From a virus (taxonomy: Duplodnaviria > Caudoviricetes): a stretch of DNA of 52,977 bases. Under the pieces are notes generated by a model. The model was not told the DNA's origin, ran no database searches, and saw nothing but the letters and a program-made list of their open reading frames with translations. Shown piece by piece: positions 944-47,280 of the stretch (the stretch's first letter is position 1; every line of letters starts with the position of its first letter). The position numbers and the translations under genes were made by a program. The DNA is taken from the IMG/VR virus record IMGVR_UViG_3300020438_000057, positions 1-52,977 of that record. One strand, written 5' to 3'.

Positions 944-1054
944 ATGTCTAAAGAAGAACATCAAAAATATATCAACTGGTTATATGCAATACATGGCATA
1001 AAAAAAGGGACGCCCGAAGACGCCCCTAGTGTAAGAGAGAAAAAGAAAGATTAA
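944..1054 (+). CDS. possible 36-aa microprotein
   Basis: AAGGAG at 932-937, ATG 944, TAA 1052-1054 (MSKEEHQKYINWLYAIHGIKKG...). Confidence 0.3.
   Translation: MSKEEHQKYINWLYAIHGIKKGTPEDAPSVREKKKD
1000..1027 (-). terminator. Rho-independent terminator of gene 32
   Basis: Minus strand AGGGGCGTC-TTCG-GGCGTCCCT followed by T-run; C(UUCG)G tetraloop typical of T4-like phages. Confidence 0.9.
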
Positions 1055-3069: not shown

Positions 3070-3680
3070 TATATTCTGTCCTTGTGCATTTGTATTGAAT
3101 TGAATGATATTGAAATACGATCAGTATCTGATAAATTTTGTTCGACTTCATGTCCTCTGTTACTAGGAAATAAAATTAGTCTTCCTTCAACAGGCTCATA
3201 ATATACAGAACTCCATTGATGAAGATGTTCTCTATGTTCATTATCGTATATGGGTTTATGATGCTGATCAGGCACATTTAAAAATTTTATTCTTCCACAA
3301 TTTTCAGGACTCTGTACATAATACACACCACTCCATAGTGCATTAGGGTGTGTGTGAAAAGTATTGTATGCATGTTTTGGTGATACATTTGCCCACATAC
3401 TTTCTACAGTTAGAGGCCAATCAGAATTATAACCTTCTTCTATTGATAAACTCTTTTGAGCATCATTAATAGTATTCGTTATTTTGCTAAACTCTTCTCT
3501 AAAATGCATAGTTATAGTACTATGCCAACCTTGTTTATTAGAGCGTCCTACACCATCTTTATCTTCTTCTTTCCATTTGTATATATCACTAATCAATTCA
3601 CGATTCAATTCTTTTGAATTTTCTATATCAAAATAAAAGAAAGGAATAGAAAACCAAAATTCCCTTTGTATTTCAGACAT
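3069..3680 (-). CDS. 2OG-Fe(II) oxygenase (TIGR02466-like)
   Basis: WANV...HTHPNALWSGVYYV...LILFPSNRGHEV...RISISFN. Confidence 0.88.
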   Translation of the reverse strand: MSEIQREFWFSIPFFYFDIENSKELNRELISDIYKWKEEDKDGVGRSNKQGWHSTITMHFREEFSKITNTINDAQKSLSIEEGYNSDWPLTVESMWANVSPKHAYNTFHTHPNALWSGVYYVQSPENCGRIKFLNVPDQHHKPIYDNEHREHLHQWSSVYYEPVEGRLILFPSNRGHEVEQNLSDTDRISISFNSIQMHKDRI

Positions 3681-5169: not shown

Positions 5170-5390
5170 TTTAGTGTGGGAGGGACTGGCTTATACCCTC
5201 AACTAACACAACAAGATAAGCATATCTTTTTTAGTGTTAGAACTTACTTCCGTCATGTGGTGTTGACGATGTGATCTTGTATGACTAGCCCTTATTTCTA
5301 AGTATTCATCTTTCAAAACCTGGGTACCACCCCTAAGTAATCAAGTTCACTCCTCTTGTCGGTAGAGTTCTTCCTTGCACCACGTTTTTT
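5170..5390 (-). ncRNA. unidentified structured RNA downstream of tmRNA
   Basis: No ORF; at least five hairpins plus long-range pairings GTGGTG/CACCAC and GAACTT/AAGTTC; bounded by a hairpin (5385-5406) and a terminator. Confidence 0.6.
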
Positions 5391-5414
5391 CTCCGTCGAG
5401 AAAAAATCTGTAAT

Positions 5415-5750
5415 TCTGTGAGAGTGTTTCTGTTCCCAAGTACACTCTCTAAACTCGGTGCGATTAAGCCGCTAGTGCATAATCCACAGGTGCAATGTCA
5501 TCGTTTGCATTTAGTTTAATGTTCTCCACTAACCTACTACCTACCTGTCGATCCTATTTCGCCCCCATCAAGAATACTTGTTGATACGCCACTATCAAAA
5601 ATCTCTAAAGTATCTTACTACTCATGTCACAATTAAACGCAGACGCAGAGTTTGTGCTATGAAGGCGTAGTACTGAGCAAGTATTCTTGGTGGAGGCGAT
5701 GGGTACCGCCCCCATGTCCAGTCTAGTTTCATTTAGTCTCAACGAACTCT
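5415..5750 (-). ncRNA. ssrA: two-piece (circularly permuted) tmRNA, alphaproteobacterial type
   Basis: Acceptor piece ends ATGGG-GGCGGTA-CCCAT-CGCCTCCACCA at 5688; coding piece starts GGGGGCGAAATAGGATCGAC at 5566; G3:U70 Ala determinant; tag frame 5508..5464 = ANDDIAPVDYALAA*. Confidence 0.95.
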
Positions 5751-5751
5751 T

Positions 5752-5783
5752 TATTTATAGCATATTGATTCGTGATTCGTCAA
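5752..5783 (-). promoter_or_regulatory. composite sigma70/late promoter for tmRNA locus with tandem TGATTCG
   Basis: TTGACG (5783..5778)-N18-TATAAATA (5759..5752); TGATTCG twice at 5766-5779. Confidence 0.75.
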
Positions 5784-5794
5784 GTCTTTTTTGA

Positions 5795-15356: not shown

Positions 15357-15476
15357 CCTCCATCATGACAGATTATTAATACTACGTATCCGATAGCAAA
15401 TATCGAAAACAAACTTACTGCATCTAATATAGTTTCTGCTATTTTTATTATATATTTTTTTATCATTTTACCTCTC

Positions 15477-15650
15477 TCAATGAACTGTCTCATAAGCTAT
15501 GGGCATATCGTATATTTCGCCCAATATTTTCATAAACTGTTCAGGCACATCATTATCATTATCAGGAATAAAGAAAGTCTTGAGTGTACCATCTTTTCCC
15601 ATAACTATTGCTAGATCGTCATCTTCTAATTTAAATTTAGTTTTTGCCAT
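15477..15650 (-). CDS. 57-aa hypothetical protein (not in ORF track)
   Basis: GAGAGG RBS, MAKTKFKLEDDDLAIVMGKDG... Confidence 0.6.
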   Translation of the reverse strand: MAKTKFKLEDDDLAIVMGKDGTLKTFFIPDNDNDVPEQFMKILGEIYDMPIAYETVH

Positions 15651-15662
15651 TTATTACCTCTC

Positions 15663-15869
15663 TCAATCGAATGGAAACGGGCCCCATTCACCATTTTCAT
15701 CTGCTCTATCTAGTTGTGCTTGAATTTTACCAATCTCAACTGCAAGAACATGTAAACCTTTTGCAAAGGCTTCGTCTTTATGAGTCGACTCTGAAGTACC
15801 ACCCATAAAGTGTTTCATAGCTTCTTTAAGCTTTTTGTGATGTTCACGTAATTCTGTATTCACTATCAT
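15663..15869 (-). CDS. hypothetical early protein
   Basis: ATGA overlap downstream of early promoter. Confidence 0.65.
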   Translation of the reverse strand: MIVNTELREHHKKLKEAMKHFMGGTSESTHKDEAFAKGLHVLAVEIGKIQAQLDRADENGEWGPFPFD

Positions 15870-16107: not shown

Positions 16108-16153
16108 CGAATCACTTACACTATTATAATAGCAGGTTGACAAATTAAGTCAA
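16108..16153 (-). promoter_or_regulatory. early promoter repeat
   Basis: TTGACT-N13-TGCTATTATAATAGTGTAAGTGATTCG. Confidence 0.85.
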
Positions 16154-16426: not shown

Positions 16427-16445
16427 ATTTTCTCACTTTCTTTAA

Positions 16446-16492
16446 CGAATCATCTTATACTATTATAGTATCAGGATGTGAGAATATGTCAA
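16446..16492 (-). promoter_or_regulatory. early promoter repeat
   Basis: TTGACA-N13-TGATACTATAATAGTATAAGATGATTCG. Confidence 0.8.
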
Positions 16493-41146: not shown

Positions 41147-41154
41147 TATTTATA
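41147..41154 (-). promoter_or_regulatory. T4-type late promoter
   Basis: TATAAATA about 40 nt upstream of the 1237-aa gene. Confidence 0.75.
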
Positions 41155-43863: not shown

Positions 43864-43871
43864 TATTTATA
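43864..43871 (-). promoter_or_regulatory. T4-type late promoter
   Basis: TATAAATA upstream of 42610..43836. Confidence 0.75.
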
Positions 43872-44082: not shown

Positions 44083-44372
44083 TATCGCCTCATGTTTGCT
44101 TGATCAATAGCATCATTGCTATCTTTTCTAATTGGTACTGCATTAGATTTATGTAGTGTTCCTATACCAAGCAACTCATCGCCAGTATAAGTACCATACT
44201 TTTTTGCCAAACCATTACCGATTTTATTTGTTGTTGATGCAGTTTTCTTAACAGATAAATCTGGAAAATCATATCTAAATTTCTTTTTTGGTTTGGTATA
44301 ACCTGTCTTTACTAACAAGTCATTTAATAATTTCTTTTCACGTTCTATTGCTTTTTTATTTCTTACAATCAT
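44082..44372 (-). CDS. conserved hypothetical protein
   Basis: YTGDELLGIGTLHKSNAVPI...MRR. Confidence 0.75.
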   Translation of the reverse strand: MIVRNKKAIEREKKLLNDLLVKTGYTKPKKKFRYDFPDLSVKKTASTTNKIGNGLAKKYGTYTGDELLGIGTLHKSNAVPIRKDSNDAIDQANMRR

Positions 44373-44383
44373 ATTATACCTAT

Positions 44384-44423
44384 AAAAAAGGGAGGGATAT
44401 TGATCAATGTCAGCGTCCCTCCC
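44384..44423 (-). terminator. Rho-independent terminator
   Basis: GGGAGGGA...TCCCTCCC stem followed by T6. Confidence 0.85.
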
Positions 44424-44480
44424 ATAACCGAGCTAGTGAGAAAGTGAGAGAGAGGTTGCTCGGTTTACCTAACTCATATG
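44384..44480 (-). ncRNA. candidate two-hairpin sRNA with CU-rich anti-RBS loop
   Basis: AACCGAGC-[AACCTCTCTCTCACTTTCTCACTA]-GCTCGGTT then terminator hairpin. Confidence 0.55.
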
Positions 44481-44486
44481 TACTTA

Positions 44487-44858
44487 TTACTTCAAATATA
44501 AAGGGCCCGTCCATCTTATATGATAACCACCATCGAGAACATTTCCTCGAGCGGCATTTCTAGCAGGTGCATTATACCCTGCGGCCATCAAGATGTCGCC
44601 TTTCTTGAACTTTTTATCAGTGTCAGTAGCGACAACGAAACCCCAACATTGGTGACGATTTAATATTTTGGCATACTTAGAGCCTTTCTTAACAACGAAA
44701 CCATCATTAAACTCAGTAATCATTCTCTTGTTAACGTCTGACAATTCTTTGGCACCACCTCGGGTAGTCCAATCAACATAATCGCTTTTAGCGATATCAA
44801 GCATAGACTCAATACCTTTGTCTAAATCTAAAGCTTTATTTTCTACTGCTAATGTCAT
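44487..44858 (-). CDS. conserved marine-phage early protein
   Basis: GSKYAKI...WGFVV...FKKGDILMAAGYNAPARNAARGNV...WTGPLYL. Confidence 0.8.
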   Translation of the reverse strand: MTLAVENKALDLDKGIESMLDIAKSDYVDWTTRGGAKELSDVNKRMITEFNDGFVVKKGSKYAKILNRHQCWGFVVATDTDKKFKKGDILMAAGYNAPARNAARGNVLDGGYHIRWTGPLYLK

Positions 44859-44879
44859 AATTTCTCTCTCTCTTTTTAT

Positions 44880-44921
44880 TGACTATGCTATTAATATAGC
44901 ATATGATTCGCTTTTTGTCAA
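44880..44921 (-). promoter_or_regulatory. early promoter with TGATTCG in spacer
   Basis: TTGACA-AAAAGCGAATCATA-TGCTATATTAATAG. Confidence 0.75.
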
Positions 44922-45806: not shown

Positions 45807-45972
45807 CTGGCGCTTTTATGTCCCAATCAATTACTTCTTTGTCCTGCAATTGGGCGTTAAGTTCAAACTGCAAAGTTTTTGCTAAGTCAACATTTTTCTT
45901 TATTATCTCTTTAGCAAATTCTTTCATGCCATCTTCGTTTTCAAAAAAACGATATGCCTCATAATCTATCAT
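45787..45972 (-). CDS. hypothetical early protein
   Basis: AGAGAGGTT RBS before ATG at 45972 (MIDYEAY). Confidence 0.65.
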   Translation of the reverse strand: MIDYEAYRFFENEDGMKEFAKEIIKKNVDLAKTLQFELNAQLQDKEVIDWDIKAPDVFYRG

Positions 45973-45982
45973 ATTAACCTCT

Positions 45983-46186
45983 CTATATGTAGTTGCTCCA
46001 AAAGTCATTCCAATAATCTTCTACTTGGCCGAAGACATCATCTTCATCTAAGTGAGGAACTTCTTTCTTCCATAGTTTCATTGCTTCAGTAGTTGCTTCA
46101 ACAATTGTATCAGACTCTTTGATAATATCTACGACACTATCCCAGAAATTTTCTTCACAATTTAAAATGTAACTTGACATTCCCAT
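45983..46186 (-). CDS. acidic hypothetical early protein
   Basis: First gene after early promoter; WNDFWSNY. Confidence 0.7.
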   Translation of the reverse strand: MGMSSYILNCEENFWDSVVDIIKESDTIVEATTEAMKLWKKEVPHLDEDDVFGQVEDYWNDFWSNYI

Positions 46187-46203
46187 TTTTTTAACCTCTC
46201 TTT

Positions 46204-46249
46204 CGAATCACTTACTCTATTATAATAGCAGGAATACAAAATTTGTCAA
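46204..46249 (-). promoter_or_regulatory. early promoter repeat
   Basis: TTGACA-N13-TGCTATTATAATAGAGTAAGTGATTCG. Confidence 0.85.
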
Positions 46250-46907: not shown

Positions 46908-46928
46908 ATTAACCTCTCTGTTTTATTT

Positions 46929-46974
46929 CGAATCACTTACACTATTATAATAGCATATCTAGAATTAAAGTCAA
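46929..46974 (-). promoter_or_regulatory. early promoter repeat
   Basis: TTGACT-N13-TGCTATTATAATAGTGTAAGTGATTCG. Confidence 0.85.
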
Positions 46975-47219
46975 GCGATTTCTTTTAATGCTTTTTTAAG
47001 AAATCTATTAACTTTTTTAACAATTCGTCTTGCACTCTCACGACATAAACCATAATCTTTACCAATACTATCAAATGTTTTTTTAGTATCATAAGTTTTT
47101 TCACCCCAAATTAAAAAGTCACGATAAGGATCACTTCTATACATATAAGGATTTCTATTGTGTATTTTAAGAAGTCTATCAATTAAATCTTTAGCAATAA
47201 TTGTTTTTTCTAAATTCAT
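46971..47219 (-). CDS. small protein with sigma70 region 4-like HTH
   Basis: KTFDSIGKDYGLCRESARRIVKKVNRFLK resembles TLEEVG..F.VTRERIRQIE.KAL.KL. Confidence 0.65.
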   Translation of the reverse strand: MNLEKTIIAKDLIDRLLKIHNRNPYMYRSDPYRDFLIWGEKTYDTKKTFDSIGKDYGLCRESARRIVKKVNRFLKKALKEIA

Positions 47220-47234
47220 ATTTTCTCTCTCTTT

Positions 47235-47280
47235 CGAATCACTTACACTATTATAATATCAGATTGAGCCTTAAAGTCAA
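47235..47280 (-). promoter_or_regulatory. early promoter repeat
   Basis: TTGACT-N13-TGATATTATAATAGTGTAAGTGATTCG. Confidence 0.85.

What the first reader, a model, noticed from the sequence alone, without database searches (positions are those of the whole stretch)
44384..44489. Candidate phage sRNA whose loop is antisense to the early-gene ribosome-binding sites
Seen: an 8-bp stem AACCGAGC/GCTCGGTT presents the 24-nt loop AACCUCUCUCUCACUUUCUCACUA, followed by a terminator; a late-promoter-like AATAAGTA lies at 44488..44481. The loop perfectly complements early-gene RBSs: AGAGAGGTT (45976-45984, 46193-46201, 46911-46919), AGAAAGTGAGA (16431-16441, 11 nt), GAGAGAGGT (15470-15478, 15656-15664), GAGAGAGAG (44864-44872) and GAGAGAGA (47224-47231). 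Replication and late genes mostly use AGGAG-type RBSs. Known: alphaproteobacterial sRNAs (AbcR, CcsR/cuckoo) use CU-rich hairpin loops to block RBSs. Inference: the phage gives its early genes a distinct RBS dialect and silences them together with one RNA, an RNA counterpart of T4 RegB/RegA shut-off.
Basis: partly seen in the sequence, partly recalled or inferred. Interest (0 to 1): 0.85.

Follow-up and report, generated by a model that had tools for sequence, protein, structure and literature searches.

The report
Conserved phage RNA hairpin mirroring early ribosome sites
An uncultured marine T4-like phage and its relatives keep, just behind one small early gene, a folded RNA whose open pyrimidine-rich loop mirrors the unusual ribosome-binding sites of the phage's early genes, so it probably damps their translation, though no such RNA or effect has been observed.

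Summary
All quoted sequences sit at the quoted coordinates. The hairpin is a real, selected RNA structure. Relatives keep 40 of 40 stem cells paired, with 3 of 8 pairs compensated. A more distant subfamily keeps 96% of 221 cells paired, with wobble pairs that fit only the gene-sense strand. The loop core ACCUCUCUCUCAC is conserved; no Rfam family matches.

Loop-to-RBS complementarity is real and moderately above chance: 7 RBS sites of 9 nt or more against 1.6 in dinucleotide shuffles, 0.7%. All 8 matched starts lack GGAG; six starts sit in sigma-70 promoter-leader cassettes of the PeSL type.

Not supported: the late promoter. Six AATAAGTA copies occur against 6.5 expected, and real late promoters here read TATAAATA. 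The element instead lies in the 3' UTR of an early 123-aa gene. That gene sits upstream in 36 of 38 hairpin loci.

No discrete RNA was shown; only contigs were available. Best reading, about 0.4: a 3'-UTR anti-RBS RNA acting in cis and/or trans.

This scan has logged the same theme on other phage DNA.

The parts
44466..44475 (-). 5' flank GAGUUAGGUA
   Evidence: Invariant in the 5 sequences found through the neighbouring protein. Also present in L105 and L157 and in 8 distinct metagenome variants, but those were found with patterns that contain part of it. The distant subfamily keeps (A/G)AGUU just before its stem.
44458..44465 (-). 5' arm of hairpin, AACCGAGC
   Evidence: Pairs with 44426-44433. 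Relatives carry AACCCGTC/GACGGGTT and AACCCGAC/GTCGGGTT. 40 of 40 cells are paired and 3 of 8 pairs changed on both sides.
44434..44457 (-). 24-nt open loop AACCUCUCUCUCACUUUCUCACUA; conserved core ACCUCUCUCUCAC
   Evidence: Unpaired in both the MFE and the centroid fold. The core is kept in both subfamilies, while the 3' half varies between lineages. It complements the GA-repeat RBSs.
44426..44433 (-). 3' arm of hairpin, GCUCGGUU
44384..44423 (-). Intrinsic-terminator-like hairpin: GGGAGGGA, 18-nt loop, UCCCUCCC, then U6
   Evidence: Fold. Relatives L105, L157 and the metagenome variants carry unrelated GC-rich hairpins plus a T-run at the same place. Not listed by the simple scan because the loop exceeds 8 nt. 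Terminator function is inferred.
44487..44858 (-). Upstream 123-aa gene (phrog_5014; ESM Atlas neighbours include DUF7717); function unknown
   Evidence: A homologue lies 12-475 nt upstream, on the same strand, in 36 of 38 hairpin loci found by a DNA pattern that does not involve the gene. The fold (pLDDT 87.8) has no informative structural match.
44863..44873 (-). GA-repeat RBS (AGAGAGAGAGA) of the 123-aa gene, on the same transcript as the loop
   Evidence: 9-nt perfect complement to the loop; RNAduplex -16.9 kcal/mol.
44893..44921 (-). Sigma-70-like early promoter of the 123-aa gene (TTGACA N17 TATATT)
   Evidence: 11 of 12 consensus positions; sequence.
47224..47232 (-). Candidate target RBS AGAGAGAGA in an early promoter-leader cassette (gene start 47219)
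   Evidence: rank 2 of 104.
46911..46919 (-). Candidate target RBS AGAGAGGUU in an early cassette (gene start 46907)
   Evidence: rank 3.
46193..46201 (-). Candidate target RBS AGAGAGGUU in an early cassette (gene start 46186)
   Evidence: rank 4.
45976..45984 (-). Candidate target RBS AGAGAGGUU (ATG at 45972); no promoter of its own was seen
16431..16441 (-). Candidate target RBS AGAAAGUGAGA (11 nt) in an early cassette (gene start 16426)
   Evidence: The homologous gene keeps an 8-nt match to its own phage's loop in G001 and a 12-nt match in G002.
15656..15665 (-). Candidate target RBS UGAGAGAGGU (gene start 15650)
15470..15479 (-). Candidate target RBS UGAGAGAGGU (ATG at 15466)
   Evidence: rank 1, -22.9 kcal/mol.

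Best explanation
The element is a conserved regulatory RNA hairpin in the 3' UTR of an early 123-aa gene of unknown function, in a marine T4-like phage. The host is probably alphaproteobacterial.

It is transcribed from that gene's sigma-70-type early promoter and ends at the terminator right behind it. Release by processing is possible but was not shown.

The 8-bp stem holds open a 24-nt loop. The loop's conserved core, ACCUCUCUCUCAC, is an anti-Shine-Dalgarno-like sequence. It can pair with the GGAG-free GA-repeat ribosome-binding sites (AGAGAGAG, AGAGAGGUU, AGAAAGUGAGA) found mostly in the phage's repeated early promoter-leader cassettes. These include the RBS of its own mRNA.

Pairing would hide those RBSs from the 30S subunit, so translation of that gene set would fall as early transcripts build up. 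GGAG-type RBSs of replication and late genes cannot pair and would be spared.

Shown: the structure, its selection, the loop conservation, the complementarity and its restriction to one RBS class, and the linkage to the 123-aa gene. Inferred: that the RNA exists as drawn, that pairing happens, and its sign and timing.
For: Structure:
- Fold with open loop.
- Window subfamily: 7 sequences, 5 distinct, 40 of 40 cells paired, 3 of 8 pairs compensated, covariation score 0.50 against 0.16 in shuffles (0 of 500 reach it).
- Distant subfamily: 17 distinct hairpins, 96.4% of 221 cells paired, 4 of 13 pairs compensated. U-G appears in 8 sequences and G-U in 2; these would be A-C mismatches on the other strand.

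Selection: the element is 88-98% identical to relatives. The adjacent coding gene is 80-85% identical, and 67-75% at third codon positions.

Loop core: CCUCUCUCUC is kept in 24 of the 80 protein-found loci. It is also kept in 14 of the 17 distinct pattern-found hairpins (L073 and L266 carry CUUUCUCUCUCUC, L310 GUCUCUCUCUC; the pattern required CTCTCTC).

Targets:
- The five best-matching early-cassette leaders rank 2, 3, 4, 5 and 8 of 104 starts by duplex energy.
- 5 of the 6 cassette leaders have 8 nt or more of match, reached by 0.15% of 2000 shuffles.
- RBS sites of 9 nt or more: 7 against 1.64 in dinucleotide shuffles (0.7%).
- By RBS class, starts with 8 nt or more: 0 of 24 GGAG, 8 of 15 GA-type, 0 of 65 others.
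- In the related 146.6-kb contig G001, the two best of 184 starts are GUGAUUCG-leader genes and the 123-aa gene ranks 6.
- GA-repeat leaders also occur in distant RNA-bearing loci.

Context:
- One full copy per genome.
- The downstream gene varies, while the upstream 123-aa gene is constant in 36 of 38 loci.
- An RNA-library contig spans 44299-44889. This is presence only.
Against: - No discrete RNA, 5' end or 3' end was seen. The RNA-run data are low-depth contigs from oligo-dT libraries that may contain DNA, and one contig runs through the terminator.
- GA-rich against CU-rich is low-complexity. At 8 nt the excess over dinucleotide shuffles is weak (8.4%), and even shuffles hit about 4 RBSs.
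- The matched leaders are paralogous cassettes, and the close relatives share ancestry. There are therefore few independent events and no clean loop-RBS covariation.
- In L007 and L056 the 123-aa gene's own RBS matches the loop by only 5-6 nt.
- The 3' half of the loop, which gives the 11-nt match at 16431-16441, is not conserved.
- My automated promoter flag marked only 1 of the top 15 G001 targets. The leaders there were recognised by eye.
- One cassette gene, start 16084, has only a 7-nt match.
- 'Early' is inferred from promoter type, not from expression.
- In the distant subfamily the loop's 3' half pairs within the RNA itself, so that RNA may do more than pair with RBSs.
Confidence: 0.4

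Rival explanations
1. The hairpin is a protein-recognition site. The conserved CU-rich loop would be bound by the co-inherited 123-aa protein (autoregulation, or an RNA-protein pair) or by a host protein that binds single-stranded pyrimidine-rich RNA. On this reading the complementarity to the RBSs is secondary.
For: There is a tight gene-RNA linkage across 45-60% amino-acid divergence: 36 of 38 loci, with gaps of 12-475 nt, even where another small ORF has been inserted between them. The 5' half of the loop is invariant while the stems covary. The protein has a basic, strictly conserved C-terminal motif, DKKFKKGD...PARNxARGN.
Against: The protein has no recognisable RNA-binding fold or family: no Pfam hit, and no PDB or BFVD match at E of 0.001 or better. 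Many relatives of the protein in higher-GC, cyanophage-like loci have no such RNA within 330 nt downstream, so the protein does not need it. Linkage could simply reflect co-transcription.
Confidence: 0.2
2. The element is a passive 3'-end structure. Hairpin and terminator only end the early transcription unit and protect the mRNA from 3' exonucleases. The loop sequence would be conserved for reasons unrelated to pairing, or would simply be young.
For: It lies between a stop codon and a GC-rich hairpin with a U-tract. It also marks the edge of the block of small promoter-driven ORFs: TATAAATA late promoters start about 500 nt further on. Comparable stem-loops in T4-type PeSL cassettes act as terminators or attenuators (passages of PMC2839356).
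Against: A protective hairpin needs no conserved 24-nt loop. Here the loop core is kept while the stems, the terminators and the downstream genes are replaced. The element is also more conserved than the neighbouring codons.
Confidence: 0.15
3. The element is a cis-acting attenuator or antiterminator for the genes downstream (96 aa and 71 aa), which have no visible promoter of their own. An event at the loop, for example pairing with the terminator's GGGAGG arm or with a trans factor, would decide read-through.
For: Only about 11 nt separate the U-tract from the ATG at 44372, and no conserved -10 lies there. CCUCUC can pair with GGGAGG (direct reading of the sequence). An RNA-library contig crosses the terminator.
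Against: The downstream gene differs between lineages, and in the distant subfamily it has its own promoter inside or after the terminator. The terminators are unrelated in sequence in L105, L157 and the metagenome variants, while the loop is kept. A 2-nt linker makes that pseudoknot sterically awkward (inference).
Confidence: 0.08
4. One reading: an independent sRNA of about 95 nt, made late from AATAAGTA, that shuts early genes off as a counterpart of T4 RegA/RegB.
For: The loop-RBS complementarity is as described above.
Against: AATAAGTA is at chance frequency (6 against 6.53) and differs from the 13 perfect minus-strand TATAAATA sites. It overlaps the stop codon, it is displaced by a roughly 50-nt insertion in L002 and L004, and it is missing in L105 and L157. 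No sigma-70-like promoter is conserved upstream of the hairpin in either subfamily.
Confidence: 0.05
5. The element is an evolutionary relic: an inverted partial copy of an early promoter-leader cassette left by recombination between PeSL-like repeats, with no function of its own.
For: The loop reads like the reverse complement of a leader. In the distant subfamily the 3' arm plus loop mirror GUGAUUCGG...GAGAGAGG. PeSL cassettes do recombine (passages of PMC2839356).
Against: There are compensatory stem changes and strand-specific wobble pairs. Conservation exceeds that of codons. The element persists across lineages whose 123-aa proteins are only 45-60% identical.
Confidence: 0.05

Closest known systems
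c4 antisense RNA of phages P1 and P7 (immI operon; Rfam C4, RF01695)
   Same: It is a phage-encoded RNA made from the same operon as its target, and it represses expression of genes of that operon by antisense action. Passages of PMC8198154 say that full repression of ant needs the C4 antisense RNA. That it pairs at the icd RBS is recalled, not read here.
   Different: There is no match to any Rfam model, C4 included. Here the phage is a lytic T4-type phage, the RNA lies in a 3' UTR and not at the operon's start, the loop is CU-repeat and anti-SD-like, and several dispersed cassette leaders are candidate targets.
Cuckoo RNAs (CcsR/RSs0680, alpha-r14) of Alphaproteobacteria
   Same: Hairpins with highly variable, compensated stems present a conserved pyrimidine-rich, anti-SD-like loop of 9-27 nt. 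The primary locus lies next to one conserved gene of unknown function (passages of PMC4615179).
   Different: Cuckoo RNAs have 2-4 adjacent hairpins, each carrying CCUCCUCCC. This element has a single such hairpin with CCUCUCUCUC. It is phage-borne and gives no Rfam hit.
PeSL (promoter-early stem-loop) cassettes of T4-type phages RB49 and phi1
   Same: The candidate targets are repeated cassettes made of a sigma-70-like promoter, a leader with SD and an ATG, in front of small ORFans. In distant relatives a GGGGGG...CCCCCC stem-loop overlaps the -35 box (passages of PMC2839356).
   Different: PeSLs are described as promoter/terminator and recombination modules. No RNA complementary to their SD is mentioned in the passages I read. 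The element studied here has no promoter.
3'-UTR-derived base-pairing sRNAs of bacteria
   Same: It lies between a stop codon and an intrinsic terminator, with a conserved single-stranded seed (direct reading of the sequence; the review PMC9438474 was seen only in the listing).
   Different: No processed species is shown. The seed sits in a large hairpin loop. The element is encoded by a phage and aimed at the phage's own genes.
T4 RegA and RegB (protein-based control of early mRNAs; recalled)
   Same: The functional idea is the same: early mRNAs are distinguished by their RBS and switched off together.
   Different: Those are proteins, and RegB cuts GGAG. Here the GGAG sites are the ones spared. 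No RegA or RegB homologue was looked for beyond the 20 proteins scanned.

Membership tests
Structured RNA under selection (generic) | Base pairs kept through compensatory changes | tested here: met
   40 of 40 cells paired, 3 of 8 pairs changed on both sides; 96.4% of 221 cells paired, 4 of 13 pairs changed on both sides. In both, 0 of 500 shuffles reach the covariation score.
Structured RNA under selection (generic) | Strand-specific G-U wobble pairs | tested here: met
   U-G in 8 of 17 sequences at one pair and G-U in 2 of 17 at another. On the opposite strand these would be A-C mismatches.
Intrinsic (Rho-independent) terminator | GC-rich stem directly followed by a U-tract | tested here: met
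   An 8-bp GGGAGGGA/UCCCUCCC stem plus U6.
Intrinsic (Rho-independent) terminator | Short loop (3-8 nt in the scan used) | tested here: not met
   The loop is 18 nt with a 3-bp inner helix. The site is not listed.
c4 antisense RNA (Rfam RF01695) | Match to the family's covariance model | tested here: not met
   No hit at gathering score, and none at E of 10 or better in 44250-44650.
c4 antisense RNA (Rfam RF01695) | Complementarity to an RBS on its own operon transcript | tested here: met
   9-nt perfect match to the RBS at 44864-44872 of the gene directly upstream. This is complementarity only.
Cuckoo / CcsR RNAs | 2-4 adjacent hairpins, each with the loop motif CCUCCUCCC | tested here: not met
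   One CU-loop hairpin with CCUCUCUCUC; the second hairpin is the terminator. Definition from passages of PMC4615179.
Stand-alone trans-acting sRNA gene | Own promoter just upstream | tested here: not met
   No promoter-like site between 44487 and 44466. AATAAGTA is at chance frequency. No conserved -35/-10 upstream in 12 distant loci.
Stand-alone trans-acting sRNA gene | Discrete transcript | not testable with these tools
   Only contigs of the RNA runs could be laid on the region. They show no ends.
3'-UTR-derived regulatory RNA | Lies between the stop codon and the terminator of an mRNA, with a conserved seed | tested here: met
   Stop codon at 44489-44487 and U-tract at 44389-44384. Loop core conserved.
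Riboswitch or attenuator of the downstream gene | Constant association with one downstream gene or pathway | tested here: not met
   Downstream genes differ among lineages. It is the upstream gene that is constant.
PeSL cassette | Sigma-70-like promoter plus stem-loop plus SD and ATG | tested here: not met
   The element has no promoter. The six target cassettes do fit the promoter, SD and ATG parts.

The most novel reading that the evidence does not exclude
Marine T4-like phages of this group would run an RNA-based, genome-wide switch for early translation. Their mobile early promoter-leader cassettes carry a private, GGAG-free GA-repeat RBS. CU-repeat 'anti-leader' sequences sit at the 3' ends of abundant transcripts: this hairpin, and the similar CU-rich stretch in the gene 32 3' UTR. 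These would pair with all such leaders at once. Any ORFan that arrives with a cassette would then be placed under the same RNA control automatically. This would do by RNA what T4 does with RegA and RegB.
Probability: 0.22. Interest if true: 0.8.

Novelty: new variant of a known kind. Interest (0 to 1): 0.6.

Why it matters
Post-transcriptional control in lytic phages of abundant ocean bacteria is almost unknown. The pelagimyophage survey I searched has 0 occurrences of 'small RNA', 'noncoding' or 'regulatory RNA' (PMC7029224).

A conserved RNA that reads a private RBS type on mobile early-gene cassettes would explain two things. It would show how shuffled ORFans stay co-regulated. It would also show how early synthesis can be limited without RegA- or RegB-type proteins.

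The family is well defined: hairpin, invariant loop core and a linked gene. It is absent from Rfam, so it can be modelled, searched and tested directly.

If the pairing model fails, the result is still a new structured RNA family tied to one widespread phage gene of unknown function.

Tried and rejected
- Rfam: nothing at gathering score on the whole window except alpha_tmRNA, permuted tmRNA and manA. Nothing meaningful at E of 10 or better around the element, or at E of 1 or better in six related loci.
- GenBank phages (blastn, distant mode): no match for the element or for the longer RNA of L078. BLAST's low-complexity filter may mask the CU run. Phage Mosig has a homologue of the 123-aa gene in another context, and model R1 found no element there.
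- The 123-aa protein: no Pfam hit. The PDB profile search gave only E = 0.96. Foldseek against PDB and BFVD found nothing at E of 0.001 or better. The ESM Atlas names neighbouring clusters DUF7717, carried by 28% of the members of one cluster. That is a lead only.
- RNA runs: 16 runs were listed and 4 laid. All are contigs, so they give no starts, ends or strand. The cover, and the contig across the terminator, do not settle whether a small RNA exists.
Only 4 had CTCTC nearby, and 3 of those are real (L105, L157, and L197, which is the contig of L002). L155 is a chance match and was dropped.
- Metagenome pattern: 112 stretches. 28 passed my stem filter. I dropped 7 loci (6 distinct sequences) that lack the GAGTT flank and a terminator, as chance matches. 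That leaves 21 loci with 8 distinct hairpins.
- A short ORF starting at the AUG just after the hairpin: 18 codons, ending in an ATGA overlap with the 96-aa gene. It is 4 codons in L003 and 14 in L004 (reading), so I rejected it as a conserved feature.
- Pairing of the loop's 3' half with the leader's TAGTGTAAGTG: the first bases probably lie upstream of the transcription start (inference from the -10 spacing). Not pursued.
- My regex 'RNA present' flag missed L002, L062 and L073, so I draw no presence/absence correlation from that table.
- Supplementary files of papers were not consulted. PeSL alignments in the supplements of PMC2839356 might bear on whether SD-complementary sequences were seen before.
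Full report
WHAT THE WINDOW IS

The 52,977-bp window is the whole record held for this genome. Nearly all long ORFs lie on the minus strand: 57 of 62 ORFs of 100 aa or more.

It encodes T4-type replication proteins: family B DNA polymerase, UvsX, a gp41-type helicase and ribonucleotide reductase. It also encodes an alphaproteobacterial-type permuted tmRNA and a manA RNA.

The helicase is about 64% identical to those of cyanomyophages and of an uncultured marine virus. The only DNA match among GenBank phages is 143 nt at 73% to Pelagibacter phage Mosig.

I therefore treat it as a fragment of an uncultured marine T4-like myovirus. Its host is probably alphaproteobacterial. That is inferred from the tmRNA type and is not shown.

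THE OBSERVATION

On the minus strand the 123-aa ORF 44487-44858 ends at the stop codon 44489-44487. After it come, in order:
- GAGUUAGGUA (44475-44466);
- the 8-bp stem AACCGAGC/GCUCGGUU (44465-44458 with 44433-44426);
- the enclosed 24-nt loop AACCUCUCUCUCACUUUCUCACUA (44457-44434);
- two bases;
- a GGGAGGGA/UCCCUCCC hairpin (44423-44390);
- U6 (44389-44384);
- 11 nt later, the ATG of a 96-aa ORF.

RNAfold returns exactly this fold with the loop open: -31.4 kcal/mol, z = -2.1.

IS IT A REAL RNA STRUCTURE?

A search with the upstream protein found 260 relatives in IMG/VR, of which the best 80 loci were kept. The four closest (76-82% amino-acid identity) carry the element at the same place. Pattern scans added L105, L157 and eight distinct metagenome variants.

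The stems differ by compensatory changes: AACCGAGC/GCUCGGUU, AACCCGUC/GACGGGUU and AACCCGAC/GUCGGGUU. 40 of 40 cells are paired and 3 of 8 pairs changed on both sides. No slid register pairs.

A second, more distant subfamily has a 12-13-bp stem around a loop that again begins (A/G/U)CCUCUCUCUC. It occurs in 20 of the same 80 loci (24 loci carry a hairpin in all, 4 of them of the window subfamily). L073 was seen by eye.

Seventeen distinct versions of this subfamily keep 96.4% of 221 cells paired. Four of 13 pairs are compensated. U-G and G-U wobbles are tolerable only on the gene-sense strand.

The element is 88-98% identical to close relatives. The adjoining gene is 80-85% identical, and 67-75% at third codon positions.

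It is single-copy per genome. It matches nothing in Rfam 15 and nothing in GenBank phage records.

So this is a selected RNA structure with a conserved single-stranded core. It has no match in Rfam, in GenBank phage records or in the papers I searched.

THE RBS SIDE

Upstream regions show a repeated cassette. It reads TTGAC(T/A)-N17-TATAAT-AGTGTAAGTGATTCG, then an A/T-rich spacer, then AGAGAG(AG/GTT), then 4-7 nt, then ATG. It occurs in front of the genes starting at 47219, 46907, 46186, 16426 and 16084. A variant precedes the 123-aa gene itself (promoter 44921-44893).

These cassettes correspond in make-up to the PeSL cassettes of T4-type coliphages, which combine a sigma-70-like early promoter, a stem-loop and an SD (passages of PMC2839356). 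The genes behind them are small ORFans: 7 of 10 have no PHROG hit and the rest have hits of no firm function.

Of 104 called starts, the split by RBS class is as follows:
- 24 have GGAG within 20 nt; none of these has 8 nt or more of complement to the loop.
- 15 have a GA-repeat type without GGAG; 8 of these have 8 nt or more.
- 65 have neither; none has 8 nt or more.

By duplex energy, five of the six cassette leaders rank 2, 3, 4, 5 and 8 of 104.

IS THE MATCH MORE THAN CHANCE?

Against mononucleotide shuffles of the loop the excess is clear. Five of 6 cassette leaders match at 8 nt or more, reached by 0.15% of 2000 shuffles. The mean duplex energy over the six cassette leaders is -16.6 against -8.3 kcal/mol, reached by 0 of 300 shuffles.

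Dinucleotide-preserving shuffles are the harder control because they keep the GA repeats. There the excess is clear at 9 nt or more (7 sites against 1.64, 0.7%). It is weak at 8 nt or more (8 against 4.19, 8.4%).

The matched leaders are paralogues, so the number of independent events is small.

In the related contigs G001 and G002 the same cassettes and GA-repeat RBSs recur. In G001 the two best of 184 starts are GUGAUUCG-leader genes. There, however, my automated promoter flag caught only 1 of the top 15.

GA-repeat leaders also occur in distant RNA-bearing loci. The 123-aa gene's own RBS matches its phage's loop by 5 to 11 nt, depending on lineage.

The variable 3' half of the loop means that only ACCUCUCUCUCAC can be a conserved seed.

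AATAAGTA is at chance frequency. Genuine late promoters are perfect TATAAATA. Thirteen lie on the minus strand, for example in front of the DUF6267 gene and the 1237-aa gene.

The motif overlaps the stop codon and is not kept next to the hairpin in relatives. No promoter is conserved upstream of the hairpin in either subfamily.

Instead the hairpin always follows an ORF's stop codon. A DNA-pattern scan that ignored proteins found 38 distinct hairpin loci. In 36 of them the 123-aa gene homologue lies 12-475 nt upstream on the same strand. The other two lack upstream sequence. The downstream gene varies.

The RNA is therefore best seen as the 3' UTR of an early mRNA, which could be processed afterwards. 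It is made early, not late.

RNA-library contigs cover the region, and one spans 44299-44889. Contigs cannot show ends, strand or level, and these libraries may hold DNA.

MECHANISM

I favour a 3'-UTR anti-RBS RNA, at about 0.4. The loop core, an anti-SD-like sequence, would pair with the GA-repeat SDs of its own mRNA and of the other cassette leaders and hide them from the ribosome. GGAG sites would be spared.

That the 16S 3' end reads CCUCC is recalled, not tested here.

Rivals, with my odds:
- A protein-binding hairpin, possibly for the co-inherited 123-aa protein: 0.2.
- A passive 3'-end element: 0.15.
- An attenuator for the downstream genes: 0.08.
- A functionless inverted-leader relic: 0.05.

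The 123-aa protein folds confidently (pLDDT 87.8) but resembles nothing solved. ESM Atlas neighbours are labelled DUF7717.

COMPARISON WITH KNOWN SYSTEMS

- c4 RNA of P1 and P7. This is the closest known system: antisense control within one operon (passages of PMC8198154).
- Alphaproteobacterial cuckoo RNAs. These have variable stems, a conserved CCUCCUCCC anti-SD loop and a neighbouring conserved gene of unknown function (passages of PMC4615179).
- 3'-UTR-derived sRNAs. The position between stop codon and terminator, with a conserved seed, is the same.

Membership of c4 and of cuckoo was tested and not met (see the membership table). I class the element as a new variant of a known kind.

This scan has logged many similar notes on other phage genomes. 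I have not checked them, and they are not independent evidence.

Noticed in passing
window 1000-1050 (minus strand): The gene 32 3' UTR holds a 24-nt CU-rich stretch, UCUUUCUUUUUCUCUCUUACACUA (1050-1027), followed by a GC hairpin and U7. It reads like the reverse complement of an early leader with the GUGAUUCG box left out. It is kept in G001. Model R1 scores it at 26.1 bits (E = 1.8e-4) in G001 and 12.4 bits (E = 4.3) in the window. It may be a second anti-leader element.
   Followed up: partly
loci L007, L009, L040, L061, L078 and others, about 120 nt after the hairpin: In the distant subfamily the RNA is longer. After the hairpin come a CCCAAUGAU...AUCAUUGGG domain and a GGGGGG...CCCCCC terminator. 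The loop's 3' half (UCUCAUCAU/AUCAUCAUA) can pair over 7-10 nt with a conserved (U)AUGAUGAG(A) segment 18-38 nt downstream in 16 of the 17 sequences that extend far enough (L073 gives only a 6-nt match elsewhere). L056 is cut off. This suggests a pseudoknot. From that AUGAUG, tiny ORFs of 15, 21, 30 and 33 nt end in a shared ACUUGA, so the lengths differ by multiples of three (my reading).
   Followed up: partly
L002 and L004, about 3375-3425: About 50 nt are inserted between the stop codon and the element. They form a 9-bp hairpin, GUCUCAAGC/GCUUGAGAC. Its loop contains CUGAUGAG, a string known from hammerhead cores (recalled). Rfam gave no hit in L004.
   Followed up: no
window 44398-44415 (minus strand); distant loci such as L009 near 3815: In distant loci the terminator loop contains the TTGACA -35 box of the next early promoter (TTGACA-N17-TATAGT), like the PeSL subclass whose stem-loop overlaps the -35 box. 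The window's terminator loop, CGCUGACAUUGAUCAAUA, is conserved among close relatives but has no usable -10 behind it.
   Followed up: partly
window 44904-44910, 47235-47241, 46929-46935, 46204-46210, 16446-16452, 16108-16114: TGATTCG follows the -10 in the early leaders. Its reverse complement, CGAATCA, sits in the promoter spacer of the 123-aa gene, also in L073, L078 and L080. The outer stem of the distant-subfamily hairpin is built from the same two words.
   Followed up: no
window 43864-43871 and 41147-41154 (minus strand): Perfect TATAAATA late-promoter motifs lie just upstream of the DUF6267 gene (start 43836) and the 1237-aa gene (start 41107). The element therefore lies about 500 nt upstream of the first late promoter. 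The 96-aa and 71-aa genes in between have no visible promoter of their own.
   Followed up: partly
window 5171-5786 (minus strand): A phage-borne alphaproteobacterial permuted tmRNA (94.6 bits; tag ANDDIAPVDYALAA) lies directly beside a manA RNA motif (61.8 bits).
   Followed up: no
L211, L233, L265: 5' flank plus stem: AGAGUUUGAUUUGG at the start of some distant-subfamily hairpins resembles the conserved 5' end of bacterial 16S rRNA as I recall it, and the loop resembles its 3' anti-SD end. This is a post-hoc resemblance from memory. Rfam reported no rRNA hit in the six loci scanned, which did not include these three.
   Followed up: no
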